Source of the DNA: an uncultured bacterium
GTDB lineage: Bacteria; Eisenbacteria; RBG-16-71-46; CAZHEV01
Direction of reading: 5' to 3'
NCBI GenBank assembly: GCA_964531335.1
Contig: CAZHEV010000013.1
Span: 22,732 to 86,731 of the forward strand
Length of the DNA stretch: 64,000 bases
Below the pieces are notes generated by a model, which saw only the letters and a program-made list of their open reading frames with translations, searched no databases and was not told the origin of the DNA. Positions 32,514-49,900 of this stretch are shown one piece after another; the first letter of the stretch is position 1, and the number at the start of each line of letters is the position of its first letter. The translations under genes were made by a program, and so were the position numbers.

Positions 32514-33023
32514 TCAACGCTCATCGCCGACCTGGCTGTCTCGATGCTCCGACCATCCGCAACATTCCCCGTCTGTCTCACGGCAGTCCGGGCTCCCTGG
32601 TTCAAGCGCCGGGGGCAACGATTCCGGATCTCCCAGGTCGGCAATGGTGATCTCGCGCGCGGCCGAATAGAAAGCGTCTCTGGCTCGGCCCCAGGCGCGA
32701 TCAAACTTGCACGGATTCTGCTCCGTACAGTCACCCAATCCGAGTCGGCATCCAGTCTCTCCATGCAAATGCTCAATGCCTTCTATCACTTCCAGTAGAG
32801 AGATCTTGTGCGGAGGCCGGGCCAGCCCGTAGCCTCCGGTGAAGCCCCGCTTTGAAGTGACAAATCCCAGGTCTCTGAGGGAATGAAGGATCTTGGCCAA
32901 ATACGGGCGTGGCACGTTAGCGCAAGCCGCGAGTTCCTCCCGTTTCCGCAAAGGCCCTATACAGAACGCCAGGCAACGTAGAGCCCTGATGGCATAGACC
33001 GAGGAGTTCGATAGTCCGAACAT
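32514..33023 (-). CDS. Rrf2-family (IscR/NsrR-like) Fe-S transcriptional regulator
   Basis: ATG 33023 with RBS AAAGGAG; MFGLSNSSVYAIRALRCLA N-terminus; three-Cys cluster CRLGLGDCTEQNPC. Confidence 0.8.
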   Translation of the reverse strand: MFGLSNSSVYAIRALRCLAFCIGPLRKREELAACANVPRPYLAKILHSLRDLGFVTSKRGFTGGYGLARPPHKISLLEVIEGIEHLHGETGCRLGLGDCTEQNPCKFDRAWGRARDAFYSAAREITIADLGDPESLPPALEPGSPDCRETDGECCGWSEHRDSQVGDER

Positions 33024-33061
33024 TTTTGACTCCTTTCCGTGTGAACCTAGCATTTATGACC

Positions 33062-33071
33062 TTGATATCAA
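33062..33071. promoter_or_regulatory. Perfect 10-bp palindrome TTGATATCAA in the Rrf2 upstream region
   Basis: Direct reading; AT-rich divergent promoter region. Confidence 0.3.
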
Positions 33072-33401
33072 CTATTTTCTTGATTTACATATCTAAAAAG
33101 CGATGAAAGGCGGCGCCGCCGGTTGCCTGACGAACCGGCCGGCACTTTCTTCCCGGCCTTCCGGCCCGACCGGGGCCGACCCGGCACCCCACTCGCATCG
33201 ACGGGATGCCCCCACCGTCCACCCTGGAACTCTGTGCGAGAAGACCGACGGGCGGGGAACCAGGAGCGCCTGATCTGAGTGCAGGGGGTGGTCCGCTGGG
33301 CCAAACCCAAAGGGCCATCAGTCTGAATCCCACAGTGCTGGTCACACTTCTGGGGTCATTCCGCGCGGGGCGCGGTGCCTCTGCGCGGTGCCTTTTTTCT
33401 C

Positions 33402-33450
33402 TTGACCGGGATGCAGGGCCTCTGCTATAATTCGATATGTGTGCACATAT
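33402..33450 (+). promoter_or_regulatory. Promoter TTGACC-18-TATAAT followed by a perfect inverted repeat ATATGTG-TG-CACATAT (candidate ArsR operator)
   Basis: Direct reading: TTGACC 33402-33407, TATAAT 33426-33431, palindrome 33435-33450, RBS GGAG 33451-33454, ATG 33463. Confidence 0.45.
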
Positions 33451-33462
33451 GGAGACTGACTT

Positions 33463-33909
33463 ATGCGCGATTTCATGACCATAGCGAAGGCACTCTCGGA
33501 TCAGAACCGGATCAGGATGCTCATGGCGCTCTCCGGGGGTGAGCTCTGCGTGTGCCAGATCACGGAGCTCGTGGGCCGGTCTCCTTCTACCGTATCCAAG
33601 CATATGTCCATTCTGAGGCAGGCGGGTCTTGTTGAAGGAAGAAAGGTCGGCCGTTGGGTCTATTACAAACACCCGGATCGCGACGTTCCCGACCTTGTGC
33701 GCGGCACTCTGAAGTGGGTGCGCAGCTCCCTGGCGGAAGATCCGCATATACTCGCGGATGTGAAACGCCTTGAGGAGGTCTTGAAGCTCGATCCCGAGGT
33801 TTTGTGCCGAGGGCAGAGCATGACGTGTCAATCCTCTCCCGGACGATCATCGGCGAAGGCCGGGACCCGAAAGCGCGGGGTAGATCGCGCGCTCAAGCGC
33901 GCGGGATGA
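33463..33909 (+). CDS. arsR: ArsR/SmtB-family metalloregulator with CVC motif
   Basis: LMALSGGELCVCQITELVGRSPSTVSKHMSILRQAGLV; Cys-Val-Cys as in As(III)-responsive ArsR. Confidence 0.8.
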   Translation: MRDFMTIAKALSDQNRIRMLMALSGGELCVCQITELVGRSPSTVSKHMSILRQAGLVEGRKVGRWVYYKHPDRDVPDLVRGTLKWVRSSLAEDPHILADVKRLEEVLKLDPEVLCRGQSMTCQSSPGRSSAKAGTRKRGVDRALKRAG

Positions 33910-34131
33910 TCTGGGCCACCGTGGTATCGGATCGGCCCGGCCACCCGCGGCGGCGGCCCAGCGATGCACACACTGAGCAACGCCACGCAATTGCCGGCAC
34001 CGCGCTGGTGGCCGCGGTTCAGCGGCGGATACCGAACGAAGTTGTGCGGTTGCCGGCGCCGGCATCATCAAGGAGGCATTGCAGGAAACGGCGGCCGACC
34101 TAAACGAACGGGAGCTTGGAGGAGAGGAGCC

Positions 34132-34995
34132 ATGGGAAAGAAACTGTTGTTGGCAGTATCGATTTGCGCTGTAGCCGCGTTCGTCGTGTACGCGGCGGTG
34201 AACATCCGGGGGATGGAACCGGGATCGGCCGGCGCAGCGGCTGATTTGCCACAATCTGCGGGCGTTTCCCGTGAAGGGCCCGCCGCCGCTGCCGGCGAGC
34301 GGCTGGAAGGATCCGGCGACGGCATGGCCGCGCTGAGAGACGCCGCCGAGGAGGATAAGTATGCTTTCGCCTTCTTCTATAAGGACGAGGATGAAGGCAC
34401 GCAGGAGATGAGGGAGTTGTTCGAGACGGCGATGGAGAAGGTCACAGATCGTGCCGAGCACGTGATCCTCAACGCCGCCGACCCTTCGGAGAAGGACATG
34501 ATCGAGAAGTACGGAATTGACCGATCACCCATGCCGTTGGTACTGGCGTTCGCTCCCAACGGTGCACTGACCCGGGGGCTTCCCAGATCCTTCACCGAGG
34601 AGCAGATAATGAGCTGCTTCGTGAGCCCGTGCATGGAAATGTGCCTCAAGGGCGTGCAGGACAGCAGGCTTGTCGCGGTGTGCGTGCAAAACGGCTCAAC
34701 GCGGTTCAACGAGGAGGCGATGGCTGGAGTGCGGGCATTCATGACGGATCCGCGGTTTGCCCGGATGACCGATCTTGTCATGTTGGACCCCAGCGATCCG
34801 GATGAAGCCACGACCTGTAAGAGGTTCAGCGTCGATCCCGACACCGACCAGGCGATAACCCTTCTGCTCGCGCCTCCGGGCAACATCATCGGAAGATTCA
34901 AGGGGGCGACCGACAAGGACGACATGGTCTCCATTCTGACGAGAGCCACGTCCGGCGGATGCGGTCCGGGCAGCGGCTCTGGATGTTGCCCCTAG
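34132..34995 (+). CDS. Hypothetical exported protein with Cys-rich C-terminal tail
   Basis: ATG 34132 with RBS GGAGGAGAGGAG; N-terminal signal/anchor MGKKLLLAVSICAVAAFVVYAAV; C-terminus GGCGPGSGSGCCP; internal CMEMC. Confidence 0.5.
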   Translation: MGKKLLLAVSICAVAAFVVYAAVNIRGMEPGSAGAAADLPQSAGVSREGPAAAAGERLEGSGDGMAALRDAAEEDKYAFAFFYKDEDEGTQEMRELFETAMEKVTDRAEHVILNAADPSEKDMIEKYGIDRSPMPLVLAFAPNGALTRGLPRSFTEEQIMSCFVSPCMEMCLKGVQDSRLVAVCVQNGSTRFNEEAMAGVRAFMTDPRFARMTDLVMLDPSDPDEATTCKRFSVDPDTDQAITLLLAPPGNIIGRFKGATDKDDMVSILTRATSGGCGPGSGSGCCP

Positions 34996-35013
34996 TAGCC
35001 CGGAGGTAACGAA

Positions 35014-36234
35014 GTGAAACTAAGAAAAATCGTCTGGCAGGAGATGTTTCAGCGGAAGTCCCAGCTTGCCACAAGCCTGATCGCCGTGCTTCTCGGCATC
35101 GCCGTGGTCGTCTCCATCAAGAACATCACCTTCTATTCCGAGAAGGCCGTGGCCAGGGAGCTCGACGCCCTGGGCACCAACATTCTCGTCCTGCCCAAGT
35201 CCGCGTCGATACAGGACTACTACAGCGCGGACATGCAGGATGACGAGTTCCCCGAGGAGTACATAACGCGCCTGGCGACCTCCGACCTCCAGGGACTGGA
35301 CAATCTGTCGCCGAAACTGTCCCTGCCGGTGGAGCTCAACGGCGCCGCTTTCACGCTGACGGGGATACTTCCCAAGAATGAGTTCAGCGCAAAGGCCATG
35401 TGGGCGGGCGCGGGCATCTTCTCGCGGCCGGAGGGCTGCGGTCAGATAGCCGGAATGCCGTCGGCCGCGGACCCGCCGGCCAAGGAGACCTTGGTCCGAA
35501 AGAGGGTCATCGACACCCTCGGTGACAATGAAGCCCTCGTGGGCGCCGACGTGGCGGCCCTGTTGGGGGTCGAGGAAGCCGACGAGCTGGCGATTCTGGG
35601 CAGGACATTCTCGGTAACCGCGGTCCTGCCGCAGACCGGCACCGTGGACGATTCCCGTATCTTCGCCCACCTGCACACTGTCCAGAAGCTATCCGGAAAG
35701 GGCCCCGTGGTCAACGCCATCGAGATCGTGGGCTGCTGCAACGAGATATCCGGGGGGCTGGTGCAGAAGATCAACAGGCTTCTTCCCGAAGCGAGAGTCG
35801 TCACGATCACCCAGGTCGTGGACACGCAGATCAAGACGAATCAGATGATGTCCCGGCTATCGATGGTCTTCCTGGCCATCATTGTTGTCGTCGGGGGAGC
35901 GAGCATAGCCAACTACATGTATGCTAACGTGTATGAAAGGCGCCGTGAGATAGGGACACTCATGGCACTGGGCGCGGGGTCCGGGATGATCTTGAAGCTT
36001 TTCCTTTTGAAGGCCCTGGCGATCGGGCTCGCCGGCGGAATCGGCGGTTATGCGCTGGGCACGCTGCTGGCGGTGACCTTGGGGCCGCAGTTCGCGCGCG
36101 TCCCCGTGCTGCCCATGCCGGTTCTTATCGCCTGGGCGCTCGGCATCTCCCTGATTTTGGCCCTCGCGGCGAGCTATCTCCCGGCCAGGCGCGCCGCGCG
36201 CCTTGACCCGTGCGAGACGCTCCAGGAGATGTGA
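35014..36234 (+). CDS. ABC transporter permease, FtsX/MacB-like
   Basis: 406 aa; N-terminal TM, large periplasmic loop, C-terminal TM bundle. Confidence 0.8.
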   Translation: MKLRKIVWQEMFQRKSQLATSLIAVLLGIAVVVSIKNITFYSEKAVARELDALGTNILVLPKSASIQDYYSADMQDDEFPEEYITRLATSDLQGLDNLSPKLSLPVELNGAAFTLTGILPKNEFSAKAMWAGAGIFSRPEGCGQIAGMPSAADPPAKETLVRKRVIDTLGDNEALVGADVAALLGVEEADELAILGRTFSVTAVLPQTGTVDDSRIFAHLHTVQKLSGKGPVVNAIEIVGCCNEISGGLVQKINRLLPEARVVTITQVVDTQIKTNQMMSRLSMVFLAIIVVVGGASIANYMYANVYERRREIGTLMALGAGSGMILKLFLLKALAIGLAGGIGGYALGTLLAVTLGPQFARVPVLPMPVLIAWALGISLILALAASYLPARRAARLDPCETLQEM

Positions 36235-36905
36235 TCTTGATAAAGTTGGAAGGCGTAAGCAAGAGGTACAACCACCGCGGAAGAGCCGTCACGGCGCTTG
36301 ACGAGGCGACTTTCGAGATCTCCAGAGGGGACTTCGTTTCGGTCGTCGGACCCAGCGGAAGCGGCAAGAGCACGTTTCTTCTGATACTGGGCGGCATGCT
36401 TTCCCCGTCGAAAGGGCGGGTTCTATTGGATGGGAGCTCGATTTATGACCTCGCCCAGGACGCACGCGCCAAGCTAAGGAAGACGAGAATCGGCTTCGTG
36501 TTTCAGACCTTCAATCTAGTGCCGTACCTGTCGGCGATGGAAAACGTCCAGATTCCCCTGTTCCTCGCGGGAATGGACGAGCCCGGCCAGAAGGACAGGG
36601 CCGCGGCATTGTTGGGACGAGTGGGCCTCTCGGAGAGGCTTGACCACAAGCCGTCCGAGATGAGCGTTGGCCAGCAGCAGCGCGTGGCTCTCGCAAGGGT
36701 TCTCGCCAACGACCCCGAGGTTGTGCTCGCGGACGAGCCGACGGGCAACCTCGATCCCGAGACCGGGGAGCACGTCCTCGATTTTCTCTGCGAGATCAAC
36801 GCGGAGGGGAAGACGGTCGTCATGGTGACTCATGACCCGCGCGCCGCCGGGAAAGCGAGAACCGGCCTGAGATTGAGCCAAGGCGCGCTGGTGTCCTTGA
36901 GTTAG
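36231..36905 (+). CDS. ABC transporter ATP-binding protein (MacB/LolD-like)
   Basis: GTG 36231 overlapping the upstream stop (GTGA); Walker A GPSGSGKST, signature-like MSVGQQQRVALAR, Walker B VVLADEPT. Confidence 0.85.
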   Translation: MILIKLEGVSKRYNHRGRAVTALDEATFEISRGDFVSVVGPSGSGKSTFLLILGGMLSPSKGRVLLDGSSIYDLAQDARAKLRKTRIGFVFQTFNLVPYLSAMENVQIPLFLAGMDEPGQKDRAAALLGRVGLSERLDHKPSEMSVGQQQRVALARVLANDPEVVLADEPTGNLDPETGEHVLDFLCEINAEGKTVVMVTHDPRAAGKARTGLRLSQGALVSLS

Positions 36906-36926
36906 CGGGTATGTCGCGGAGCGGAT

Positions 36927-38126
36927 ATGTCAGGGCGCAAGAAGAAGGCCGGGTCACAAGCGGGACGTGAGAGGACGAGCCCTCAGAGGGAGAAGGTGAA
37001 GCGCCGCCGAATGACGAAGTTGGCCTTTACACTCTCGACCGTCATCGTCGTAGCGGCGGCGGCATGGATCGCGTTGGGCTCCCGCGGCGAGAAGTCATGG
37101 AGCCCGTCCTCGGCCTCGGAGCTGTTGCAGTCGGCGGCCACGGCGCCGGATGATGCGGAAACAGGCGCTCGGGCCGGCGGAGCCCCGAAGATTGTCTTCT
37201 CGGAGACATCGTACGATTTCGGCACCTTAACCCAGGGGGCTGACGTATCGCACGCTTTCGTCGTGCGCAACGCCGGAGACGCGCCGTTGAAGCTGCTTGA
37301 CGTGGGGGGATCGTGAGGATGCACGGTTGCCGTCCTCACGGAGACGGACATTCCCCCGGGCGGGGAAGGAGCAATCGAGGTCACGTTCAAAACAGGCAAC
37401 AGGAAGGGAAAGCAGAAAAAGAACATCAAGATAGTGTGCAATGATCCTGCGAGCCCCAAGAACGTGCTGGTTGTCACGGCATTCATCCAGGTTGAGTTCG
37501 ATTTCGCGTCCGGCAGCCTCTATTTCGGCAGCGTGCCGAGAAACGAGACGGTGACCAAGAGCGCTTTCATACAGATCCTGGATCCTGACAGGACGGAAAT
37601 CACGGACATAACCACGTCATCCCCCTACGTTGAAGCGAAACGCCTGAAGGATCCCCCGGCGGGACACGAGGGCGAAGTTGAAATCCGGGTGACCATGTCA
37701 CCGGGACTGCCCCCGGGCAGAGTCAATGAGACGGTCACCGTTCGGTCGAACTTGAGCTCCAAGCCCGAGGCCAGGTTGCGTGTGAGCGGGGTAATACTCG
37801 GAGACGTCGAGGTTGCTCCGGACGCGCTTAGATTCTTTTACAGCGAGTCCGAGGGGGCGGAGAATCAACTACCCCCTCAGAAGCTCGAGGTTGTCAATAG
37901 GTCAACCGAGGCGCCACTGAGAATCTTGGAAGTCAAAGATCCTCAAGACAGGCTGGAACTGGAGCTTGAGGCGATCGAAGACGGTCGGAGATACGAGGTA
38001 ACGGCGACATTGAAGAAAGAGGCCCTCGGCGCTCAGGGTGTCGCTACGGGCTTTATTCTCATTACTACCGATAATCCCGAACAGCGGGAAATCACCGTTC
38101 GATATAGTATCATTAGACGGAAATAG
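36927..38126 (+). CDS. DUF1573-repeat protein interrupted by one in-frame TGA (37314-37316) at a conserved Cys position
   Basis: The 36927-37316 and 37434-38126 track ORFs are in the same frame; read-through gives ...KLLDVGGS*GCTVAVLTETDIPPGGEGAIEVTF..., matching the family SCGCT core as I recall it, with TGA where TGC/TGT (Cys) is expected. Confidence 0.6.
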
Positions 38127-38495
38127 TGGGCGCGTGTCGTCATGACTTGGCTTGGAAACTCGAGCACGGCATGGCGATGTCGCAACTTCGCGGCCTCCGG
38201 GGCGGAGGTTGCAACACATAGAGGGTAGTGTTCTGAGTTGGGAGTTTCTGCAATGTCCTTGTGCTGGTTGCCGCGCGGGTCCTGTCGCCGATTATCCCCC
38301 ACCGTCCTCGCGAAGCCTGCGGGCGGTGGGGGGCCCCCTATCGGCGCCACCCGCGCGAAAAATGTACAAGAACTTCCAACTCAGCATACTGGAAGCGACA
38401 AACACCCACAACTCGGCGGCTCCGGGTCGAAGGTTGTAGGGGGAGTACCGTTGGACGCCGAGTGAGCAATCAAGAGACGGAAGGATGTCACAAGG

Positions 38496-38936
38496 ATGCC
38501 ACTGAGAATACTGTTTCTGTGCACCGGGAATTCGTGCCGCAGCCAGATGGCCGAAGGTTGGACGCGACATCTCAAAGGCGACGTGGTGGAGCCGTACTCG
38601 GCCGGGATAGAACCTCGCGGAATCGATCCCCGCGCCGTGACGGTAATGGCGGAGGTCGGCGTGGATATTTCGAGGCAGAGCTCCAAGCACGTTGACGAAT
38701 TCAAAGGCACAGCCTTCGATTTCGTCGTGACCGTCTGCGACCATGCGAGCGAACACTGCCCGATCTTTCCTGGCGATACCCAAGTGGTGCACGTGGGTTT
38801 CGAGGATCCTCCCAAGCTGGCGGAAAACGCCGAGACCGAAGAGGAGGCGCTCGGCCACTACAGGCGCGTCAGAGACGAGATACGGGCATTTGTGCAGACG
38901 CTGCCGGCTGCCTTGGAAGGAGACGGGAGACAATGA
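38496..38936 (+). CDS. arsC: Arsenate reductase, thioredoxin-coupled LMW-PTPase type
   Basis: CX5R motif LFLCTGNSCRSQMAEG and downstream Cys pair VCDHASEHCP. Confidence 0.85.
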   Translation: MPLRILFLCTGNSCRSQMAEGWTRHLKGDVVEPYSAGIEPRGIDPRAVTVMAEVGVDISRQSSKHVDEFKGTAFDFVVTVCDHASEHCPIFPGDTQVVHVGFEDPPKLAENAETEEEALGHYRRVRDEIRAFVQTLPAALEGDGRQ

Positions 38937-39838
38937 AAGACACCGATATAGACCGCGGGAGTGACGGGAGCAGGGACGCCGATATAGACCGCGGGAGTGA
39001 CGGGAGTGAGCGGAAGGACGCGCGCGGCATCGTGCGCGAAGAATACGGCAAGATCGCCCGGCAGGGCGGCTCCTGCTGCGGGCCGTCACCTTGCTGTGGA
39101 GGCGCTTCCGCTGATTCGGTCGCCGCGAAAGTGGGCTACAGCCAAGAAGAGCTCGCCGGGCTGCCGCATGGAGCTAACATGGGGCTCTCCTGCGGGAACC
39201 CGGTCGCGATCGCGTCGCTGCGGCCGGGGGAAGTCGTGCTCGACCTGGGCGCGGGGGGCGGCTTCGACGTGTTCCTTGCAGCCCGCAAGGTGGGCCCTTC
39301 GGGACGCGCCATCGGCGTGGACATGACGCCGGACATGGTGGACAAGGCCCGCCGCAACGCGGAGTCCTTCAGAAGTGCGACGGGGCTCGACAACGTCGAG
39401 TTCCGTCTGGGCGAAATAGAGCACCTGCCCGTGGCGGACGCGTGCATAGACGTGGTAATCTCCAACTGCGTCATCAACCTCTCGCCGGACAAGCCTCAGG
39501 TGTGGGCGGAGATCGCGCGCGTCCTCAAGCCCGGTGGACGGGTATCCGTCTCCGACCTGGCGCTCCTGCGGCCGCTGCCGGACGCGGTGCGTGAGTCGGC
39601 GCAGGCCTTGGTCGGCTGCATGGCGGGGGCCGTGCCGGTGGATGAGACGCGCGAGATGACGCGGGAGGCCGGACTTACAGAGGCCGTCTTTGAAACCAAT
39701 TCCGACTACGTGGATCAGATGGCCGAGTGGTCCGACGCAACCTACCGCGAGATCGCCGCGGGGCTGCCGCCGGGGGCCCGGCCGAGCGACTTCGTGACCA
39801 GCATGAACGTCACGGCGTCCAAGCCCGTTACGGAATAG
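38933..39838 (+). CDS. arsM: Arsenite S-adenosylmethionine methyltransferase
   Basis: ATG overlaps arsC stop (ATGA); SAM-MTase motif [16 protein letters not shown], conserved Cys ([19 protein letters not shown]). Confidence 0.85.
38943..39006. repeat. 36-bp tandem direct repeat x2 at the 5-prime end of arsM (28/28 identical core ccgatatagaccgcgggagtgacgggag)
   Basis: Direct reading; encodes [11 protein letters not shown] twice. Confidence 0.9.
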
Positions 39839-39848: not shown

Positions 39849-41039
39849 ATGGCGACTGAAGCGTGCATCAAGAAGGAGGCCAAGGGCCTCAGCGCGTTTG
39901 AGAGATACCTGACGGCCTGGGTGGCGCTCTGCATCGTGGCGGGGATCGCGCTCGGCAAGGTAGCGCCGGGCGTGGCTACTTTTCTGGACGGGTTGGCGAT
40001 CTACGTCGACGAGGCCCCGGTCGTCTCCATTCCCATCGCCGTCTGCCTGTTCTTCATGATGTACCCCATCATGGTGAAGATCGACTTCGCGGAGGTCCTA
40101 AAGGCCGGCAAGAACGCGAAGCCCGTGGGCCTTACGCTCTTCGTAAACTGGGCGATCAAGCCCTTCACCATGTACGCCATCTCGGTCTTGTTCCTCGGCG
40201 TGCTGTTCCGGGGGCTGATAGGTGCGGACGCCGTGGATCTGGTAAAAATGCCGCTCGGCCTCGACCTGCCCGTGGGGGCGGAGCACGGGGTGGGCAAGGT
40301 CGTGATCGCAGACGGGGTCAGGATGCTCGAGGTGCCGCTGTGGCGCAGCTACCTCGCCGGCTGCATCCTGCTCGGCATCGCGCCCTGCACGGCGATGGTG
40401 CTCGTCTGGGGGTTCCTGGCCAAGGGGAACGACGGCCATACCCTCGTCATGGTGGCGATCAACTCGCTGACAATGCTGTTTCTCTACGGCCCGCTTGGAG
40501 GTTTTCTGCTCGGCGTCGGAAGGCTGCCCGTGCCGTGGCAGGCGCTCCTTCTTTCCATCGGCGTCTATGTCGCGCTGCCGCTCGTGGCCGGATATGCGTC
40601 CAGGAGACTCATCGTTCGCGCCAGGGGAGAGGAGTGGTTCAAGGAGAGATTCCTGCACGTGATGACGCCGGTCACCATCACGGCGCTCCTTGTGACCCTG
40701 GTCTTGCTCTTCTCCTTCAAGGGCGAGACGATCATGTCCAACCCTTTGACGATCCTGTGGATCGCCATCCCGCTTTTCATCCAGACCAACCTGATATTCT
40801 GGATCACCTACGGACTGGCCAGGGGGCTGCGTCTTGAGTACCGTGACGCCGCGCCTTCGGCGATGATCGGAGCCTCGAATCACTTCGAGGTCGCCATCGC
40901 GACGGCGACCATGCTCTTCGGGCTTTCCTCGGGGGCGGCGCTTGCAACCGTGGTCGGGGTGCTCATCGAGGTGCCCGTGATGCTGATGCTGGTCCGGATC
41001 TGCCTTCGCACCAGCGGATGGTTCCGTGCGCCCTCGTGA
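39849..41039 (+). CDS. acr3: Arsenite efflux permease, ACR3 family
   Basis: RBS TAGGAG; polytopic membrane protein; N-terminal [23 protein letters not shown] typical of Acr3. Confidence 0.85.
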
Positions 41040-41555
41040 CCCGTACCCGGGCTAATCGCGGCAGCGCGCCCTGGTGGCCGGAAAGACCGCCGAAGAAGCC
41101 CGAGAGTGATCCGCCGAGAAAGAGATATCTGCGGTCGAATTTGAGATCCCGCACTCGGGGCAGCAGCTCGAACAGTGAGAACGCAAGCATGAGTGCTCCC
41201 ATGACCAGCTTGATAGGGGTGATGACGGCCGTTCGATCCCCCAGCTCATACCTTGCGATTTCTCCGCGATTTCTCCGAAATGGGCCACCCATCCCAGTGC
41301 GGCGGCGCCGGCGAAGGCCGCCGCGACGGCGGGGATGCCGAACCTGGTGACCAGGGACAGGTTCGCGTGCTTTCCCACCACGGCGACTTTGAAGGCGTTG
41401 TTCGCTCCGTGAACCACCGCCGTGGCCCCAACGGCGACTTCGACCGGGAAGAACAGAGCGAATACCGGCAGGAGAAGTGTCCCCAGACCGAACCCGGAGT
41501 ACAGAGTCAGTGCCGAGGCGAAAAACGCGACGGATGCGACCAGTGCCGGCTCCAT
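40963..41555 (-). pseudogene. TauE/SafE (TSUP) family sulfite-exporter-like permease, frameshifted and apparently 3-prime truncated
   Basis: N-terminal half lies in the frame of track ORF 41052-41732 (MEPALVASVAFFASALTLYSGFGLGTLLLP...), C-terminal continuation in the frame of ORF 40963-41292 (RYELGDRTAVITPIKLVMGALMLAF...). The frames are separated by an 11-bp tandem duplication; the 3-prime end overlaps acr3 convergently. Confidence 0.6.
41255..41276. repeat. Exact 11-bp tandem duplication (gcgatttctcc x2) causing the TauE frameshift
   Basis: Direct reading of 41255-41265 and 41266-41276; removing one copy restores ...WVAHFGEIARYELGDRTAVITP... in a single frame. Confidence 0.9.
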
Positions 41556-41572
41556 CTCATCCTCCCAACCGG

Positions 41573-42988
41573 TCAAGCTGCGGGCCAAATCCAGACTACG
41601 AGTACTGAAACGAACAAGATGGAGGAAACCAGGAGCCCGGAACGCGCCGCTGCGAGCGAGTCTGCGGGGATGTCGCGCATCCATCGCGATGCCCGCCACG
41701 CGAGCAGGATCGCCACTGCGAGCATCGCCCATCCGACGGTCGAGAGGCCGAGCAGTCCCGCAGGCATGGCGATTCCGTGGTCTCCGATTTGTCGGAAGGT
41801 TTCCATCCCATTCGGATCGCTAACCGCCAGAGGCAGGTAGCCGCCCCATGAAGCGACTTTGGCTGCGGCCTTTGAGACGTGCGCCGCGGCTACGACCGGA
41901 GCCGCTCCCGTCGCGGCGGCGAGCAGAAGCGTCCGAAGACCGCCGCGGTGGCCCATGAGGTAGCCCAGCAGGGAGACGGCGGCCCACACCAGAATGGGGA
42001 AAATGACAAGGAACCACAAAGCCTCGAACCATCCGAATTCAACCATCGGCAGGAGGGAGTTCAGCCGCTTCGGCACGGCGTGAAATCCGGCGTCGAGCCA
42101 CTTTACTTCTCCTATGACTTCATGCGCCACGAAGCCGAGAGCGACCAGCACGAAAGCGGCCTCGAACGGCAGGAGCAAAGACCTGCGCCGGATCGGCGAG
42201 TCGGATCGCGCAAGACCGAACCCCATGTTGTCGTAGGGACAGACCTTGGCGCATTGGAGGCAGAGCACGCAGCCGTCGGACGGTTTGCGCCGAAAGGGTG
42301 CCAATAGCGACGGGCAGCTTCGCTTGTCAAAGCGGTCGCGGTTCGCGGGACGAATACAATCCTTGGTGCCGCAGGAGTCGCAGAGGGATGGATCGCGGGC
42401 CTCAAGCTGGATCGGGGTGTAGCGGCCGTACACGGAGAGCAGCGCTCCGGCAGGGCAGAAAGCGCGGCAGAATGAGCGGTGATCGCTGAAGACCAGCCCC
42501 GCGACAAACGCCGTAGCTGCCAACAGGAGAAGAAAGATCGACGTGTAGTGCGGCATTCTATGGATGGAGAATCCCGCGACCAGAAGTTGGAGCAGGAGGT
42601 AGATGGTTACGATAATCCAGCCGGCCCGCAGGAACCTCCCCAGCCGTGGGCGCGGCCGTCCGGCTCTGCCGGCGATGGCGTTGCCGATCCGGTTGACCAT
42701 CTCCAATGGACAGACCGTGCACCAAGCCCGTCCAAAACCCAACGCAATCGCGATCATCAGCGGCCACCAAAGCCCCCAGACGACCAGAGTGGTGAGGTTC
42801 GTCTTTCGCAGGGTCAGCAGCTCATCGTCCTTCATGCCGGTACCGATGCCCAGTCCGTTTATTGCCAACAAGGCGACCGCGACCAGGGCAAGCGCTTGCA
42901 TCGTCACCGGAAACGCAGCGGACATGAGAAAGCGGCGCACAGGCTTCCATCTTAAGACGTCGAATCTCACTTGGGATTTTTCGGTCAT
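41573..42988 (-). CDS. Polytopic membrane 4Fe-4S binding protein (NapH/MauN-like polyferredoxin)
   Basis: ATG 42988; multiple TM segments plus Cys clusters (CTVCP, CRAFCPAG, CDSCGTKDC, CVLCLQCAKVCP). Confidence 0.65.
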   Translation of the reverse strand: MTEKSQVRFDVLRWKPVRRFLMSAAFPVTMQALALVAVALLAINGLGIGTGMKDDELLTLRKTNLTTLVVWGLWWPLMIAIALGFGRAWCTVCPLEMVNRIGNAIAGRAGRPRPRLGRFLRAGWIIVTIYLLLQLLVAGFSIHRMPHYTSIFLLLLAATAFVAGLVFSDHRSFCRAFCPAGALLSVYGRYTPIQLEARDPSLCDSCGTKDCIRPANRDRFDKRSCPSLLAPFRRKPSDGCVLCLQCAKVCPYDNMGFGLARSDSPIRRRSLLLPFEAAFVLVALGFVAHEVIGEVKWLDAGFHAVPKRLNSLLPMVEFGWFEALWFLVIFPILVWAAVSLLGYLMGHRGGLRTLLLAAATGAAPVVAAAHVSKAAAKVASWGGYLPLAVSDPNGMETFRQIGDHGIAMPAGLLGLSTVGWAMLAVAILLAWRASRWMRDIPADSLAAARSGLLVSSILFVSVLVVWIWPAA

Positions 42989-43241
42989 TGTCCGTACCGT
43001 CCGCCGTCTTCTCCGAGCACTATCTCGCGGTGGAGCTCCTCGATCTGTGCGCGCAGGTGGGCGAGCACTTTCCGGCCGTTCTCGGTCGGCGAATATTTCC
43101 TCCTGGCTCGCAGGCCGCTTCCGGGGTCGGTCTTGCACTTGATCCAGCCGCGATCTTCCTGACCACCAAGCTCGTCGAATCGTTCCCCGGCCTGGACTTC
43201 TCCCTTGCCGGGCCGGGCATGTCCCAGGGCTGCCGGCTTTC

Positions 43242-44387
43242 TCATGGGCGCCCTGGGCCGGCGAGGCTCTTCCACGCCTTGCTCAACAGTACCACCGCTT
43301 GGCGGACATCGTCGCTCGTCGTCGCCCGACCGAGTGAGAGGCGAACGGAGCCGAGCGCGTCCTCGGCGGTGAGGCCCATGGCAAGTAGCACCGCCGAGGG
43401 AGCCTCCCCGCCCTCGTGGCACGCCGAGCCCGTCGACGCGGCGAGCCCCGGGGCGCCGCCGAGCACGGCGCTGCCGCGCACGCCGGGAAACGTCACGTTC
43501 AGAGTGTTGGGCAGCCCCAGCGCCTCGTGGCCGTTGAGCGCGATACCCGGGATTTTTGCCCGCAATAGCAACAATAGCTCGTCCCGCAGAGCCCGGGCCC
43601 GCGCCGATTCCTTCGCCAGAGACCTGATCGCAATCTCGCATGCCGCGCCGAGCCCGACTATCGATGCCACGTTCTCGGTGCCCGGCCGCAGGCCTCGCTC
43701 GTGACCGGCGCCGCGCAGCACCGGCTCCACGGTCACCCCATCGCGGACGTACAGCGCCCCGACGCCCTTCGGGGCGTAGAGCTTGTGTCCTGCGATGGAC
43801 AGGAGGTCCACGCCGAGTTCATCCACTTGTACGTCGATCTTGCCCACTGACTGGGCCGCGTCGGTGTGCAGCAGGGATCCGGCGTCGTGAACCGCTCGCC
43901 TCACCTCGGCGATCGGCTGGAGCGTGCCGGTCTCGTTGTTGGCGTGCATCAGCGTAACGAGAACGGTCTCCTCGGTCAGTGCCCGGCGCACATCCTCCTC
44001 TCGGACACGTCCGGTCTCGTCGACCCCCAGCCAGGTGACTGCCAAGCCGCTTCGTTCGAGCAGCCTGCAGGGGTTAGCAGTCGCCGGATGCTCGACGACC
44101 GAAGTGACGATGTGCTTCCTGTCCGGGCGGGAGGCCGCCGCACCCCGGATCGCGAGGTTGTTCGCCTCGGTGCCGCCCGACGTGAACACGATCTCGGCGG
44201 GCGCGGCGCCGATGAGCGAGGCGACGCGCGCCCGCGCGGCCTCGACCGCTTCGTGCGCCCGTCGTCCGTACGCGTGACCGCTCGACGGGTTGCCGAAGTG
44301 CTCCCGCAGGTACGGCAGCATCTCGTCCACGACCTCGGGCAGGAGCGGAGTGGACGCGTTGTGATCGAGGTAGATGGGATCGCTCAT
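43242..44387 (-). CDS. Cysteine desulfurase (NifS/IscS family, PLP-dependent)
   Basis: ATG 44387 with RBS AGAGGGGGA; MSDPIYLDHNASTPLLPEVV...TSGGTEANN..., PLP-Lys context SIAGHKLYAPKG, active-site Cys region STGSACH. Confidence 0.85.
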   Translation of the reverse strand: MSDPIYLDHNASTPLLPEVVDEMLPYLREHFGNPSSGHAYGRRAHEAVEAARARVASLIGAAPAEIVFTSGGTEANNLAIRGAAASRPDRKHIVTSVVEHPATANPCRLLERSGLAVTWLGVDETGRVREEDVRRALTEETVLVTLMHANNETGTLQPIAEVRRAVHDAGSLLHTDAAQSVGKIDVQVDELGVDLLSIAGHKLYAPKGVGALYVRDGVTVEPVLRGAGHERGLRPGTENVASIVGLGAACEIAIRSLAKESARARALRDELLLLLRAKIPGIALNGHEALGLPNTLNVTFPGVRGSAVLGGAPGLAASTGSACHEGGEAPSAVLLAMGLTAEDALGSVRLSLGRATTSDDVRQAVVLLSKAWKSLAGPGRP

Positions 44388-44553
44388 GACTCCCCCTCTT
44401 GCGATGTTCTCTTGTATGCAGCGGCCGCGACGAACGCGGCGCCGGGCGTGATGGTGGCAGCCGGCATGTGATCGAGCGGCGCGGAACGGCGCCGCCCGTC
44501 GCGAGCCCGCGTGTCGCGCCGGCACGCGTACGTCCTCGGGAGCATCGCCTGCA

Positions 44554-45765
44554 TCACAGCCCGGTCGCGAGCTGCACGGTCACCACGAGGTGATCCTGCA
44601 GCGCCGCCGCGCTAGGGTCTCCTTCCCGCTGCCCTACGTAGGTGCCTTCCACACTGAGCTTGTTGGCGTGGCCCGAGAAGAAGTAGTTCAAGCCGAGGCC
44701 GCCGACATGAGTGTTGTGGTCGCTGTCATCGACGTGAATCAACTCGTAACGCGCGAAGGGCTGAAGCCGACCGGGTCCGACTTCGCCCGATATAAGGTAG
44801 CCGCCCCTGAAAGACACGACGTCGGCCTCGGTCCCGGGGGAGAGGGCCGTGAAGTTGACGGTGCCGGGAGCGCCGCGGATGTTAATGTAGGACCCAACCA
44901 GCGTCAATCCTCCTCCGCCGCCGATGGGCCGGTCGTAGTGGACGTCGGCGGTCCATGAGAAATAGTCGTCTTCGCCTGTATCGAAGGTGAGCTGCTGGGA
45001 GTCAAAGCCGCCGCCGATTGATAGGACCTGCCGTTTGCCGAGGTAGGTGCCCTGGTTGAACCAGCCGGTCTCGGGCTCCAAAAGAGACAGGCTCAAGCGC
45101 CCCGCGATGCGAGGGGCGCCGCCGGGATTGCGGGTCTCGTCGTCCACGCCGTCGGCGACCATGAGGCGATACTGCGCGAGCCCGCCCTCGATGTTTCCCC
45201 ACAGTGTGGCGCCGTCATCGCGGCCGACCGTGCTCGGGTAGAAGATCCCCCCGCGATATCCGCCCTGAATCCAGTCCAGATCGGTGGTGAGGAGCGCCTT
45301 GGTCGAGGTCGTTCCGTAGTTTCGAGTGAAGGGGATGTACATCCGCCCGACCTGGAGCTGCATCGCGCCCTCAAGGAGTTTGACGTAGACCCATCCGTCT
45401 CGAAGTGCGAGCCCGGTGCCAAGGCCCACGCCGGGTTTGTCCAGGCCCCTCTGTCCGAAACGGTCCCCGGCGATGTGGACGAAGAAACCGTACCAGGGGG
45501 TCGCCGTGCCGTTCACGGACAGGTACACTCGCCGCAGCAAGAAGTCGTGGAGATCCTGATCCGCGTCGCCGTCCGATGCGTCCTGTACGTACTGGTACCA
45601 TCCCTGCGCCCACAGACCGATGCTCAATGAGCGGTCTCCGTCGCGATATATCTCCTCTGCAAAAGCGGCGCCGGAGGCACCGAGCGCCAGTAGAACGGCC
45701 AGACCTGCCGCGACGGGCACGGTCCTCGACTTGCGGCTGCGAAATGTTTGTCTTGGTCTGCCCAT
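44554..45765 (-). CDS. Putative outer-membrane beta-barrel / porin-like protein
   Basis: ATG 45765 with RBS GGAGGA; signal peptide ...AAGLAVLLALGASGAAFA; Gly/Tyr/Thr-rich beta-like composition. Family not resolved. Confidence 0.45.
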   Translation of the reverse strand: MGRPRQTFRSRKSRTVPVAAGLAVLLALGASGAAFAEEIYRDGDRSLSIGLWAQGWYQYVQDASDGDADQDLHDFLLRRVYLSVNGTATPWYGFFVHIAGDRFGQRGLDKPGVGLGTGLALRDGWVYVKLLEGAMQLQVGRMYIPFTRNYGTTSTKALLTTDLDWIQGGYRGGIFYPSTVGRDDGATLWGNIEGGLAQYRLMVADGVDDETRNPGGAPRIAGRLSLSLLEPETGWFNQGTYLGKRQVLSIGGGFDSQQLTFDTGEDDYFSWTADVHYDRPIGGGGGLTLVGSYINIRGAPGTVNFTALSPGTEADVVSFRGGYLISGEVGPGRLQPFARYELIHVDDSDHNTHVGGLGLNYFFSGHANKLSVEGTYVGQREGDPSAAALQDHLVVTVQLATGL

Positions 45766-45778
45766 GCTCGATCCTCCG

Positions 45779-46132
45779 TCAAAACACCAGGATTCGGTCG
45801 GCCCACAGGGTCCACTCGGTAAGCTGGTCGAGGGATCCGCGTTTCGTTCCCTCGGCGAGATCGTCGAGCGCGAGGCCGCGGGCGTCCATACAATTGGCGC
45901 AGACACCGATCTCGCCCTTCTTGTTGCTGACCGCGCGCAGCATGCGCTCGAGGTTGTAATACCCGTTGGGGGTCTGCTGCCCGGCCCTGGCGCAACTTGC
46001 CGCGTCGCCCATGAGGAAGACGCGGACCTCTTCTCCCTCGCGCTTGACGAGGGAGCCCGCCAGGCGCAGGCCGTTGTAGCTCCGTTCAGTGCCGTAGGGC
46101 GCGTCGTTCAGAATAAAGAGGGTTTTGCTCAT
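45779..46132 (-). CDS. DsrE/DsrF-like sulfur-relay family protein
   Basis: 117 aa; MSKTLFILNDAPYGTERSYNGLRLAGSL...FLMGDAASCA pattern. Confidence 0.7.
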   Translation of the reverse strand: MSKTLFILNDAPYGTERSYNGLRLAGSLVKREGEEVRVFLMGDAASCARAGQQTPNGYYNLERMLRAVSNKKGEIGVCANCMDARGLALDDLAEGTKRGSLDQLTEWTLWADRILVF

Positions 46133-46812
46133 GATTGGTCCTCGATAGCATTGGTTTCGACGGCCAGACCGCGGGCGCGCCAGTCGGTCACTCCCTCCTC
46201 CATTCGGATGGCGTAAAAGCCTTTTTCGCGAAGCGCCTCGACGGCCTGCACGGATAGCACGCAGTAGGGCCCCCGGCAGTAGGCGACGATGTCTTTATCC
46301 TTGGGAAGCTCGGCCAATCTGGATTCAAGCTCCGTCAGGGGAATCGATATCGCTCCCGGGATGTGGCCTGCGCTGTACTCCTCGACGGGCCGCACGTCGA
46401 TTACCGTGACGCTCTTGCTTCGAACGCGCTCTATCAGTTGCGCGCGATCGACGGCCTCGAGTCCTTCCCGACCGTCGAGGAAGCGACGAGTGATCTGTTC
46501 GATGTCGGCGAGCCGCTTCTCTGCAAGGAGGCGCATGCTTCGGAAAAAGTCACATACCGCCAAGTCGGCGATCTTATAGGTGACGTAGAGTCCCTCCTTG
46601 CGGCCCTCGATGAGGCTTGCTCCACGCAGGACGTGCAGATGGCGGGAGGCGTTGGCGACCGTCAGGCCGGATTCTTTGGCCAGCGCCTCGACGGTCCTCG
46701 GGCCCTGGCAGATAAGATCCAGCAGCTCCAGCCGTTTGGGGCTGGAGACGGCCCTTCCGATCCGCGAAAACTGCTCGTAGATATCGTCTTTGAAGCGCCT
46801 GTTGGGGTTCAT
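46129..46812 (-). CDS. ArsR-family HTH regulator fused to a rhodanese domain (BigR-like persulfide-sensor candidate)
   Basis: N-terminal wHTH (LELLDLICQGPRTVEALAKESGLTVANASRHLHVL), C-terminal rhodanese with active-site loop AYCRGPYC. Confidence 0.8.
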   Translation of the reverse strand: MNPNRRFKDDIYEQFSRIGRAVSSPKRLELLDLICQGPRTVEALAKESGLTVANASRHLHVLRGASLIEGRKEGLYVTYKIADLAVCDFFRSMRLLAEKRLADIEQITRRFLDGREGLEAVDRAQLIERVRSKSVTVIDVRPVEEYSAGHIPGAISIPLTELESRLAELPKDKDIVAYCRGPYCVLSVQAVEALREKGFYAIRMEEGVTDWRARGLAVETNAIEDQS

Positions 46813-46852
46813 GGTAGCCCTTTCTTCTTGTGCTACTCAAGCGAATAAGCAA

Positions 46853-46881
46853 GTAATAGAATAATCTGGCGTCCGTGTCAA
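46853..46881 (-). promoter_or_regulatory. Minus-strand sigma70-type promoter TTGACA-17-TATTAC upstream of the ArsR-rhodanese operon
   Basis: Direct reading of the reverse complement: TTGACA (46881-46876), 17-nt spacer, TATTAC (46858-46853); about 40 nt upstream of ATG 46812. Confidence 0.35.
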
Positions 46882-46963
46882 GACGAAAGATGGTTGTTGC
46901 TGGGAACGCTTGTTCCTCATCTTTTTTCGCCGCACCCGCGCGAACACCTTCGGTCTCAGGGCG

Positions 46964-49900
46964 TTACCTGATAGCCCGGGAGCCGGCATCCCTTTCCTTA
47001 CCGAACATCCTGTAGATGGCGGGCATTAGAATCAGGGTGAGTGCGTTCGCTGAGAGCACTCCCCCGATCACGACTGTGGCGAGCGGGCGCTGCACCTCAG
47101 CCCCAACGCCGGTGTTCAACGCCATCGGAAGGAACCCCAGGCTGGCGACCAGCGTCGTCATGAGAACCGGTCTCAGGCGCAAAAGGGCGCTTTCCTCGAT
47201 CGCCCGCTCGATGGGAAGACCGTCGGCGATCATTCGCTGCATGGTGGAGACGAGTACCAAGCCGGCGAGCATGGCGACCCCGGAGACCGCGACGAATCCC
47301 ACGCCGGCCGACACTGTAAAGGGCATCCCGCGGATCCACAGCGACAGGAGCCCTCCAAGGGTTGCGAAGGGGGCGCCCGTGAAGATGAGCAGCGCGTCCC
47401 GCAGGGATCCCGTACTCGTGTAGAGGAGGAAGAGGATCAGGAGGAGCGCCAGCGGTACGACGATCATCAGGCGATGGCGCGCCCTCTCCATGTGTTCGAA
47501 CTGTCCGGCGAATGCCATGTAGTATCCCGCGGGGAGTTCGACCTCACGATCGAGCCGCTTCCGCGCCTCACCGACAAAGCCACCCACGTCGCGTCCCCTT
47601 ACGTTGCACTGCACGACGATCCGCCTCCTTTGCCACTCGCGCGTGATTGTCGACGGCCCTTCGACCTGCCGGATGCGCGCGAGCTGTTCGAGGGGAATGC
47701 GCCCGCCGGCCGCCGTTGGGATGAGGATCCGCCGCACCGCGTCAGGATCGCTTCGGTATCGCTCCGGCAGTCGCACCGCGAGATCGAAGCGTCGCTGACC
47801 TTCGCGTATCTCCCCGACGGTCACGCCGCCTATAGCCTCCACGACTTCGAGAACATGCTGTGCCGCGACGCCGTGGCGCCCTACGGCATCTTGATCGACT
47901 TGGATTTCGATTACGGGCTGGCCCGTGATCTGTTCCACGTACACGTCGGCCGCCCCGCGAATGCCGCCGATGACGGCGCCCACCTCCGCGGCTTTTTCTC
48001 GAAGGATGTCGAGATCGTCGCCGAAGATCTTTATCCCCACGTCCGTGCGAATCCCGGCGATCATTTCATTCACCCGCATCTCGATCGGTTGCGTGAAGAT
48101 GAGGCGCATCCCGGGCAAACCGGAGAGCTCCAGGCTCATGAGCTCGACCAGTGCCTCTTGGCTGCCGGCTCTCGTCCACTCGCCCCTCGGGGCCAGCGTG
48201 ATGAAGACATCGGAGAGCTCTATCCCCATGGGGTCCGTCGCCACCTCCGCCGTGCCCGTGCGGACCCACACGTCGCGAACCTCGTCGGGGTGCTTCTCGA
48301 GGATTATCTTCTCGATCCGGCCGCCGTAGCGAACGGACTCCTCCAGGGAGATCCCGGACAGCCGGACCGTGTTTATCACAATCCCACCCTCGGAGAGGCG
48401 CGGAAGGAATTCCGAGCCTATTCGCGTGGCGAGGACCGCCCCACAAGCGAGCAGCAGAAGCGCTCCGGCCAGGACGCGCCGACGGCGCCTGATCGCATAG
48501 CGAACCACCGGGCCATAGATGCTTTTTGTGGCGCGAGCGATTCTGTTCTCCTTGGCCTCCGTACGATTCCGCAGTACGAGGCTCGCCAAAACAGGCATGA
48601 GGGTGAGCGAGAGAACCAGCGAGCCGGCGAGCGCGAAAAGCAGAGTGAGGGCCATAGGTCTGAAGAGCCTTCCCTCCACGCCTTCGAGTGTCAGGACCGG
48701 CAGGAAGACGATGGCAATGATCAGCTCTCCGTACATCGTGGGTTTGCGGACTTCAGTGGCGGCCTCGCGGACGGTGTCGATCACCGAACGGCGGCCTTCA
48801 TGATGAGCCAGGCGCCGGACGCAGTTCTCGACCGAGATTACCGAGCTGTCCACGATGAGGCCGAAGTCTATGGCACCGAGACTCATAAGGCTCCCCGCGA
48901 TGCCGAACTTGACCATGCCGTTAACCGCAAAAAGCATGGACAGTGGAATCGCCGCCGCGACGATGAGCCCGGCGCGTAGGTTGCCCAGGAGAACAAAGAG
49001 CACGGCGATGACCAGGAGCGCTCCCACTAGCAAGTTCTCCTCTACGGTATGGAGGACTTTGTCGACGAGGTCCGTTCGCTCGTACAGGGGTTTCACCTCG
49101 ACTCCCTCCGGGAGCGTCTCCCGGATCTCCGCCATTCGCTCGCGGAGGCGTGAAGTCACCTCGTGACTGTTCTCCCCCATCAGCATGAAGGCGAGCCCCA
49201 GCACCACCTCCCCACGCCCGTTGGCTGTGACCGCGCCTCGGCGAATCTCATGCCCCTCGCGCACCTCGGCAACGTCTCGGACGCGGATCGGCACTCCGTC
49301 CTCGGCCGTGATGAAGATGTTCCCGATCTCCCGGAGATCCGTCGTCAGACCGATGCCCTGGACCAGGTTCATCTCGCCCGCCTGCGCGATGTATCCGCCT
49401 CCGACAACCAGGTTGTTCTTCTCAAGCGCTCGAAGCACGTCGTCCAGCGTCATGTCGTATTTCACGAGGCGCACGGGATCGGCAAGTACGTGGAACTGTT
49501 TTCGCTTTCCTCCCCACGTATTGACCTCGGCCACCCCCGGAACCGATTGCAGCCGCGGCTTGATGACCCACTCGTGCAGCGTCGTGAGCTCCATGAGGGT
49601 GTGGCTCTCGCTTGTTACCACGTAGTGATAGATCTCCCCAAGCCCCGTGGCTACGGGGCCCATCTCCGGGTTAGGGGTCCCGTCGGGAATCTCCACCGTC
49701 TGCAGGCGCTCCATGATGAGCTGCCGCGCGAAGTAGATGTCGACGTCCTCTTCAAAGGTGACCGTCACCTGGGACAGACCGAATTTCGAGATCGACCGCA
49801 CTCCCTCCAGTCCCGGTAGGCCGGCGATCGCCCGCTCGACGGGGAAGGTGATCTGTTGCTCGATTTCCATGGGCGATAGTGCCGGCGCCGTAGTGTTGAT

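What the first reader, a model, noticed from the sequence alone, without database searches (positions are those of the whole stretch)
41255..41276. Exact 11-bp tandem duplication frameshifts the TauE/SafE permease gene
gcgatttctcc occurs twice in immediate tandem. The TauE-like reading frame switches precisely here (HFGEIA in one frame, GEIARYELGD in the other); deleting one copy gives a continuous TauE-like protein. This is either a recent inactivating slippage event or an assembly artifact.
Basis: seen in the sequence. Interest (0 to 1): 0.45.

Follow-up and report, generated by a model that had tools for sequence, protein, structure and literature searches.

The report
Frameshifted, truncated TauE transporter pseudogene
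The exact 11-base tandem duplication is real and does break the reading frame of a TauE/SafE-type membrane transporter gene, but the gene has also lost its last 101 codons, so this is an ordinary, recently dead gene remnant.

Summary
Observation confirmed. GCGATTTCTCC occurs twice in tandem at 41255-41276 and nowhere else in the window; about 0.045 such exact duplications are expected by chance. The TauE/TSUP gene is on the minus strand (ATG at 41555), and homology to 262-aa relatives jumps frame exactly at the duplication. Removing one copy restores HFGEIARYELG; the homologue consensus is HFGEIARYSLG, and the one homologue checked at DNA level has one copy.

Homology stops at residue 161 of about 262 (window 41062), 22 nt from the stop codon of a convergent, intact ACR3 arsenite-efflux gene. 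The last 101 codons are nowhere in the 64 kb. Repairing the frameshift would still not give a working eight-helix transporter.

An independent Logan assembly of run SRR7048218 is 100% identical across the duplication and the truncation junction, so an assembler artefact is unlikely. No read-level test was possible. No single-copy allele and no same-species genome was found. The remnant shows no further decay (1 of 72 highly conserved positions changed, as in intact homologues), so both lesions are recent.

Verdict: an ordinary pseudogene made by known mutational routes. Low interest.

The parts
41255..41276 (-). Exact 11-bp tandem duplication. On the + strand it reads GCGATTTCTCC x2; on the coding (minus) strand it reads GGAGAAATCGC x2. 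It inserts 11 nt into codons for ..HFGEIA|RY.., which shifts the frame.
41277..41555 (-). 5' part of the TauE/TSUP remnant, in the original frame: ATG 41553-41555 through the GEIA codons. It encodes the N-terminal part of the protein, about 70-75% identical to 262-aa homologues.
41062..41254 (-). Second part of the TauE remnant, in the shifted frame. It corresponds to homologue residues ~98-161 (RYELG...GGLSGHQGAL). Homology ends at codon CTG, 41062-41064.
41052..41054 (-). Premature stop (TAG) reached in the original frame after 71 out-of-frame codons. The predicted product is 167 aa.
41040..41061 (.). 22-nt junction between the ACR3 stop codon and the last TauE-homologous codon. This is the truncation breakpoint. 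No terminator-like site was found in the scanned stretch 40800-41800, which includes this junction.
41560..41566 (-). Shine-Dalgarno-like GGGAGGA, 4 nt upstream of the TauE ATG and just after the stop (41573-41575) of the upstream gene. The translation start signals of the remnant are intact.
   Evidence: read directly from the sequence
41573..42988 (-). Upstream gene of the same operon: a 471-aa membrane protein with a weak NapH/MauN-type ferredoxin match. It is intact.
39849..41039 (+). Convergent, intact ACR3 arsenite efflux gene (TIGR00832, 381 bits, model positions 1-327 of 327). Its 3' end abuts the truncated TauE remnant.

Best explanation
This is a dead remnant of a TauE/SafE (TSUP family, PF01925) membrane transporter gene. 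It was the last gene of a minus-strand sulfur-handling operon: ArsR-rhodanese regulator, DsrE, porin, cysteine desulfurase, NapH-like Fe-S membrane protein, then TauE. It carries two independent lesions. (1) An 11-nt direct duplication of GGAGAAATCGC (coding strand) inside the codons for HFGEIARY. The most likely cause is strand misalignment during replication or repair; the single base C that precedes the unit and also ends it is the only microhomology. The extra 11 nt shift the frame, giving 96 native residues, then 71 unrelated residues, then a stop at 41052-41054. (2) A deletion or rearrangement removed codons 162-262 (about transmembrane helices 5-8) and everything up to 22 nt beyond the stop codon of a convergent arsC-arsM-acr3 arsenic-resistance gene set. 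Either lesion alone would abolish the eight-helix transporter. Shown here: both lesions, the single-copy state in homologues, the same sequence in a second assembly, and the lack of further decay. Inferred: the slippage mechanism, that the truncation is a deletion rather than an insertion, that both events are recent, and the sulfur-export role of the operon. The order of the two events cannot be told.
For: The duplication is exact, unique in the window and unlikely by chance. The Pfam TauE match scores 49 bits against a 32.6-bit cut-off but covers only profile positions 2-165 of 237. The listed best homologues, 67-80% identical, are nearly all 262-263 aa and none covers more than 92% of the 193-aa query. 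All ten aligned homologues read through the site with one GE(I/V/L)(A/T) copy and continue ...GHQGALRSAFL... for about 100 more residues. The homologue DNA in L018 reads GGAGAAATTGCC AGG TAC GAG, a single copy. tblastn shows the frame switch at the duplication, the end of homology at 41062, and no hit for residues 162-262 anywhere in the window. ACR3 is complete and ends at 41039. Logan contig SRR7048218_38195 is 100% identical to window 40562-50988. The 167-aa frameshift product is recorded from NCBI and Logan, and the repaired product is not recorded. The remnant differs from the homologue consensus at 1 of 72 columns that are at least 95% conserved; intact homologues average 1.0 (sd 1.0). 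None of 15 related loci carrying the upstream Fe-S gene has ars genes beside it, and only L002 has TauE directly after it. In a study of pseudogenes of Candidatus Burkholderia leaf-nodule symbionts, about half of insertions (110/217 outside Ca. B. pumila) created direct repeats of flanking sequence (PMC6054270).
Against: No reads were examined, so a sequencing or consensus error shared by both assemblies cannot be excluded. Both assemblies probably derive from the same run. Population heterogeneity, with a minor single-copy allele, also cannot be excluded. No same-species or same-strain genome was found, so the ancestral sequence at the truncation junction is unknown. The Logan contigs break inside arsM (39339) and acr3 (40562), so the assembly graph is not simple 0.5 kb from the junction. 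One-base microhomology is weak support for slippage specifically.
Confidence: 0.8

Rival explanations
1. The duplication, or the truncation junction, is an assembly or sequencing artefact and the organism has an intact TauE gene.
For: The source is a metagenome-derived sequence known from one run only. The Logan contigs break 0.5 kb away, inside acr3, which hints at a branch in the assembly graph. No reads could be inspected.
Against: Two differently built assemblies agree base for base over 10.4 kb, including both lesions: the 64-kb window (probably part of the 90,437-nt NCBI contig) and a 14-kb Logan contig. From my own knowledge of de Bruijn assembly with k=31, the 22-nt duplicated tract is shorter than k, so k-mers spanning both copies plus flanks must occur in reads; assemblers do not invent such tracts. 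A random artefact would also not be expected to be an exact copy of adjacent sequence.
Confidence: 0.07
2. The duplication is real but did not arise by slippage. It is the fill-in product of a staggered double-strand break. That could be a target-site duplication left after insertion and clean excision of a transposable element, or an end-joining (NHEJ) repair scar.
For: From my own knowledge, 11 bp lies within the range of target-site duplications made by some IS families such as IS4. The window encodes LigD primase-polymerase and phosphoesterase modules of the NHEJ system. PMC6054270 proposes IS insertion-excision as one source of direct-repeat insertions in bacterial pseudogenes.
Against: No nucleotide of foreign sequence lies between the two copies. 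No transposase family was found among the roughly 50 ORFs of the window scanned with Pfam or covered by the Logan gene calls. The LigD ligase domain in the window is itself mostly missing. Sequence alone cannot separate this from slippage.
Confidence: 0.1
3. The two-copy tract is functional: either a programmed ribosomal frameshift site or a reversible on/off (phase-variation) switch for the transporter.
For: A -1 shift within the tract would restore the downstream frame, with four extra residues. Tandem repeats are in principle reversible by slippage.
Against: No X XXY YYZ slippery heptamer lies in the tract CAT TTC GGA GAA ATC GCG GAG AAA TCG (read directly from the sequence). The homologues examined have a single uninterrupted frame. 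There are only two copies of a non-simple unit. Even in frame, the gene lacks residues 162-262, so there is nothing functional to switch on.
Confidence: 0.02

Closest known systems
TauE/SafE sulfite-exporter-like proteins (TSUP family, Pfam PF01925; 'YfcA'-type membrane proteins)
   Same: Residues 1-161 are 67-80% identical to 262-263-aa TSUP proteins from Desulfobacterota, Planctomycetota and other metagenome bins. Family motifs are conserved (SGFGLGTLL..., SGFFGGxSGHQGAL) and the Pfam score is above the cut-off. From my own knowledge, the place at the end of an operon with an ArsR-type regulator, rhodanese, DsrE and a cysteine desulfurase resembles ArsR/BigR-type sulfur-detoxification operons that end in TauE-like exporters.
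   Different: The reading frame is interrupted by the 11-nt duplication. The second half of the protein (profile positions 166-237, about helices 5-8) is missing, so it cannot form the 4+4-helix transporter.
Bacterial pseudogenes made by short direct-repeat insertions and by partial deletion
   Same: A short insertion that exactly copies adjacent sequence, with length not a multiple of three, leading to a premature stop, plus loss of the 3' end. Such direct-repeat insertions made up about half of insertions in a pseudogene survey (PMC6054270).
   Different: Nothing essential. It is notable only for being very fresh, with no additional substitutions at conserved sites, and for carrying two lesions in 500 nt.
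Phase-variable contingency genes with tandem repeat tracts
   Same: A tandem repeat inside a coding region whose copy number sets the reading frame.
   Different: There are only two copies of an 11-nt complex unit, not a long tract of 1-7-nt units. The repeat is not seen in the homologues examined. The gene is truncated regardless of phase.

Membership tests
TauE/SafE (TSUP) transporter, PF01925 | Significant match to the family profile above Pfam's gathering score | tested here: met
   The frame-corrected translation scores 49 bits, E 8.5e-13, against a cut-off of 32.6. It is 67-80% identical to annotated TSUP/TauE proteins.
TauE/SafE (TSUP) transporter, PF01925 | Full-length architecture: about 240-270 aa, two 4-helix halves | tested here: not met
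   Only profile positions 2-165 of 237 and homologue residues 1-161 of 262 are encoded. Residues 162-262 are absent from the window.
TauE/SafE (TSUP) transporter, PF01925 | Single uninterrupted reading frame | tested here: not met
   The frame switches from -3 to -2 at the duplication, and the native frame stops at 41052-41054.
Pseudogene (frameshifted and incomplete) | Clear homology to a functional family, with a disrupted frame and/or a large missing part relative to homologues | tested here: met
   Both criteria are met: an 11-nt insertion and loss of 39% of the length.
Pseudogene (frameshifted and incomplete) | The lesion is real in the organism, not in the assembly only | tested here: inconclusive
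   An independent Logan contig is identical and the frameshift product is on record from two sources. Reads were not available.
Programmed ribosomal frameshift site | Slippery heptamer at the shift site and conservation of the two-frame arrangement in homologues | tested here: not met
   There is no X XXY YYZ motif in the tract. All homologues examined are single-frame.
Phase-variable repeat locus | Multi-copy repeat tract with copy-number variation among strains or reads and an intact gene in one phase | tested here: not met
   There are two copies only. The gene is truncated in every phase. No other allele was found. Variation among reads could not be tested.
Transposon excision footprint (target-site duplication) | Direct repeat of a length typical of an IS family, with that IS present in the genome | tested here: inconclusive
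   The length of 11 nt is compatible. No transposase was found in the window. The rest of the genome was not available.

The most novel reading that the evidence does not exclude
The 11-nt duplication, the clean loss of the TauE 3' half and the gutted LigD ligase domain 31 kb away may all be scars of error-prone double-strand-break repair in a lineage undergoing active gene loss. The exact duplication would then be a fill-in (NHEJ or transposon-excision) footprint rather than replication slippage. That would make this genome a natural record of end-joining repair in an uncultured bacterium whose nearest relatives for one gene are bins labelled Myxococcales/Myxococcota.
Probability: 0.07. Interest if true: 0.3.

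Novelty: already known. Interest (0 to 1): 0.1.

Why it matters
It matters mainly for annotation. The locus should be marked as a frameshifted and incomplete TauE/TSUP pseudogene, not as the 167-aa 'TauE' protein now on record from gene callers. The operon should not be credited with a sulfite or organosulfonate exporter. It also gives a small, dated example of how a convergent arsenic-resistance gene set came to abut a sulfur-handling operon with loss of the sequence between them. No open question is advanced by it.

Tried and rejected
(1) Exact-product look-ups with the longest-ORF starts of ACR3, the 521-aa Fe-S ORF, the cysteine desulfurase and DUF72 found nothing. Look-ups with gene-caller starts worked.

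(2) The genome-contig scan with the Fe-S protein found no same-species genome. The best hit was 66% identical, and the top relatives are MAGs variously labelled Ignavibacteria, delta proteobacterium, Phycisphaerales and Myxococcales/Myxococcota. Strain-level comparison was therefore impossible.

(3) A metagenome-contig scan for either the one-copy or the two-copy allele (CATTTCGGAGAAATCGC N{0,11} AAGGTATGAGCTGGG) gave 0 matches.

(4) The gene neighbourhoods of two of the closest TauE homologues (P0034, P0016) are unrelated to this one, so they say nothing about the ancestral 3' flank.

(5) Searching papers for SRR7048218 gave nothing.

The exact-sequence cluster look-up showed it is not in the collection.

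(7) A 14-nt near-repeat bracketing the junction (41028-41041 and 41066-41079, 12 of 14 identical) was considered as recombination microhomology. I rejected it as probably chance, because both copies persist.

(8) There is no compositional step across the junction (GC 0.62-0.65 on both sides), so there is no compositional evidence that the ars genes are foreign.

(9) Short database homologues (178-195 aa) were checked as possible natural half-size forms. They end at different points, either at contig ends or at their own frameshifts, and are not a conserved short form.

Full report
OBSERVATION. The + strand at 41255-41276 reads GCGATTTCTCC GCGATTTCTCC. The two copies are identical, and the 11-mer occurs nowhere else in the 64-kb window on either strand. 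Because base 41277 repeats the first base of the unit, the periodic tract is 23 nt long and the unit boundary is ambiguous by one base. Tandem Repeats Finder reports 41255-41277, period 11, 2.1 copies, 100% matches. In 200 dinucleotide-preserving shuffles of the window, the mean number of exact 11-bp tandem duplications was 0.045. All other exact tandem duplications with a unit of 8 nt or more in the window have units of 9, 18 or 21 nt. This is the only one whose length breaks a reading frame.

THE GENE. The gene lies on the minus strand. It starts at ATG 41553-41555. A GGGAGGA ribosome-binding motif (41560-41566) precedes it, and the stop codon of the upstream gene is at 41573-41575. With one copy removed, the translation matches Pfam TauE (PF01925) at 49 bits against a cut-off of 32.6. 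It also finds thousands of relatives. The best 120 listed are nearly all 262-263 aa, are 67-80% identical, and where named are called TSUP family transporter, sulfite exporter TauE/SafE or YfcA.

tblastn of five full-length homologues places residues 1-102 at 41555..41250 in frame -3 and residues 89-161 at 41280..41062 in frame -2. The overlap of the two segments is the duplicated tract. On the coding strand the tract reads CAT TTC GGA GAA ATC GC|G GAG AAA TCG C|AA GGT. With one copy removed it reads H F G E I A R Y E L G. All ten aligned homologues read through this site in a single frame, and the consensus is HFGEIARYSLG. The DNA of a homologue in locus L018 has a single GGAGAAATTGCC AGG TAC GAG. 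The duplication is therefore derived, and it is the cause of the frame switch. As the sequence stands, the native frame gives 96 TauE residues, then 71 unrelated residues, then a TAG at 41052-41054.

THE SECOND LESION. The Pfam match covers profile positions 2-165 of 237. None of the listed homologues covers more than 92% of the 193-aa repaired translation. In the alignment every homologue continues ...SGHQGAL-RSAFLxKxGISTEAFVGTNA... for another 101 residues. The window reads ...[20 protein letters not shown]..., which is unrelated. Homology ends at codon CTG 41062-41064.

No frame of the following sequence, and no other place in the 64 kb, encodes residues 162-262. The only other tblastn hits have E values of 0.015 or worse (most above 0.3), and those touching the missing residues are insignificant. 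Twenty-two nucleotides further on (41037-41039) lies the stop codon of a convergent gene. That gene is a complete ACR3 arsenite efflux transporter (TIGR00832, 381 bits, model positions 1-327 of 327). It is preceded on the same strand by arsM (NF008823, 317 bits) and a thioredoxin-type arsC. No terminator-like site lies between the two converging genes.

The TauE gene has therefore lost about helices 5-8, its stop codon and its 3' flank. A single deletion running from within TauE to just past acr3 is the simplest account, but that is an inference. No compositional step marks the junction.

IS IT REAL? The 167-aa frameshift product is encoded on Logan contig SRR7048218_38195 (14,096 nt). That contig is 100% identical to window 40562-50988. 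It therefore spans the duplication, the truncation junction and 477 nt of acr3. A second Logan contig equals window 30496-39339. Because the Logan contigs break where the window is continuous, the window comes from a different assembly.

The exact-sequence look-up shows the 167-aa product on record from NCBI and Logan, with a longest contig of 90,437 nt. The repaired 193-aa product is not on record. From my own knowledge, a 22-nt tract is shorter than the 31-mers that Logan uses, so the two-copy k-mers must be present in reads. This argues against an assembler artefact. It does not replace a read pile-up, and the two assemblies probably share the same reads.

AGE. I compared the remnant with 112 full-length homologues. 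It differs from the consensus at 1 of 72 columns that are at least 95% conserved. Intact homologues scored the same way average 1.0 (sd 1.0), and 63% of them deviate at least as much as the remnant. Neither segment contains a further stop or indel. Both lesions are therefore young relative to sequence divergence. Their order cannot be told.

CONTEXT. The remnant is the last gene of a minus-strand cluster. Upstream to downstream, this contains an RND/MFP/OMP efflux set, an ArsR-rhodanese regulator, DsrE, a porin, a cysteine desulfurase, a small ORF and a 471-aa membrane protein with a weak NapH/MauN match. This looks like a sulfur-trafficking or detoxification operon in which a TauE-type exporter would be a natural terminal gene; that reading is my inference from knowledge of ArsR/BigR-type operons. 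Among 15 loci from other genomes that carry the Fe-S membrane protein (28-66% identity), only L002 has TauE directly downstream, and none has ars genes nearby. The neighbourhoods of two of the closest TauE homologues are unrelated to this one. TauE is thus a variable accessory of this operon, and its adjacency to ars genes is specific to this genome.

MECHANISM AND RIVALS. The most likely origin of the duplication is strand misalignment during replication or repair synthesis. Direct-repeat insertions are a common class of insertion in bacterial pseudogenes: 110 of 217 in one survey (PMC6054270). The sequence cannot exclude a fill-in of a staggered break, meaning a transposon target-site duplication left after excision or an end-joining scar. 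LigD polymerase and phosphoesterase modules are present in the window. However, no transposase was seen in the window, and nothing lies between the two copies.

A programmed frameshift or a phase-variation switch is rejected. There is no slippery heptamer, there are only two copies, the repeat is absent from the homologues examined, and the gene is truncated in any frame.

VERDICT. The object is an ordinary frameshifted and incomplete pseudogene of a well-known transporter family. Its value lies in correct annotation only.

Noticed in passing
window 8507-10600 (minus strand): This is a LigD-type NHEJ locus whose ligase core seems deleted. The primase-polymerase ORF (8507-9421) and the phosphoesterase ORF (9908-10600) are complete. 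Between them lies only a 137-aa ORF (9427-9840) that matches just positions 31-94 of 94 of the ligase OB domain, and no adenylation domain matched in the two minus-strand ORFs scanned there. A 58-nt period repeat (2.2 copies, 77% matches) at 9763-9886 sits at the break. It looks like a second degraded gene in the same window.
   Followed up: partly
window 38933-39040 (+): The arsM gene begins with an in-frame, imperfect ~36-nt tandem duplication ([12 protein letters not shown] / [12 protein letters not shown]). TRF also reports an exact 9-nt x2 repeat at 38992-39009.
   Followed up: no
window 38481-38502: An imperfect 11-nt x2 tandem repeat (AAGGATGCCAC, 90% matches) straddles the arsC start codon.
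   Followed up: no
window 39339 and 40562: Two Logan contigs of SRR7048218 end inside arsM and inside acr3. They leave 1.2 kb (the arsM 3' end and the acr3 5' part) on neither contig. This could reflect a segment shared with other genomes in the sample or a coverage drop.
   Followed up: partly
window 1395-1640, 1825-1898 and 61184-61375: These are coding-region tandem arrays. The first has 9/33/48/63-nt periods (Pro/Gly/Ala-rich). The second is a perfect 21-nt x3.5 repeat inside a DUF5320 ORF (1636-2370, minus). The third is an 18-nt x10.4 array inside an unannotated ORF (60529-61383, minus).
   Followed up: no
window 24408-32482: A second sulfur/oxyanion gene group. It contains a DsbD-like membrane protein, a YeeE/YedE-type sulfur transporter (PF04143) with a porin, and a molybdopterin oxidoreductase with its Fe-S subunit and a NarJ-like chaperone, next to an Rrf2 regulator and the ArsR-headed ars-containing operon. 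It could be a respiratory arsenate, thiosulfate or polysulfide reductase; I did not resolve which.
   Followed up: no
window 41028-41041 and 41066-41079: A 14-nt near-repeat (GCGCCCTCGTGACC / GCGCCCTGGTGGCC, 12 of 14 identical) brackets the ACR3-stop/TauE-breakpoint junction. It is probably chance in GC-rich DNA.
   Followed up: partly
L001 10237-10239 and L007 6775-6789: In two related MAG loci the orthologue of the Fe-S membrane protein gene is itself split into two tblastn segments. These could be frameshifts or assembly errors in those MAGs.
   Followed up: no
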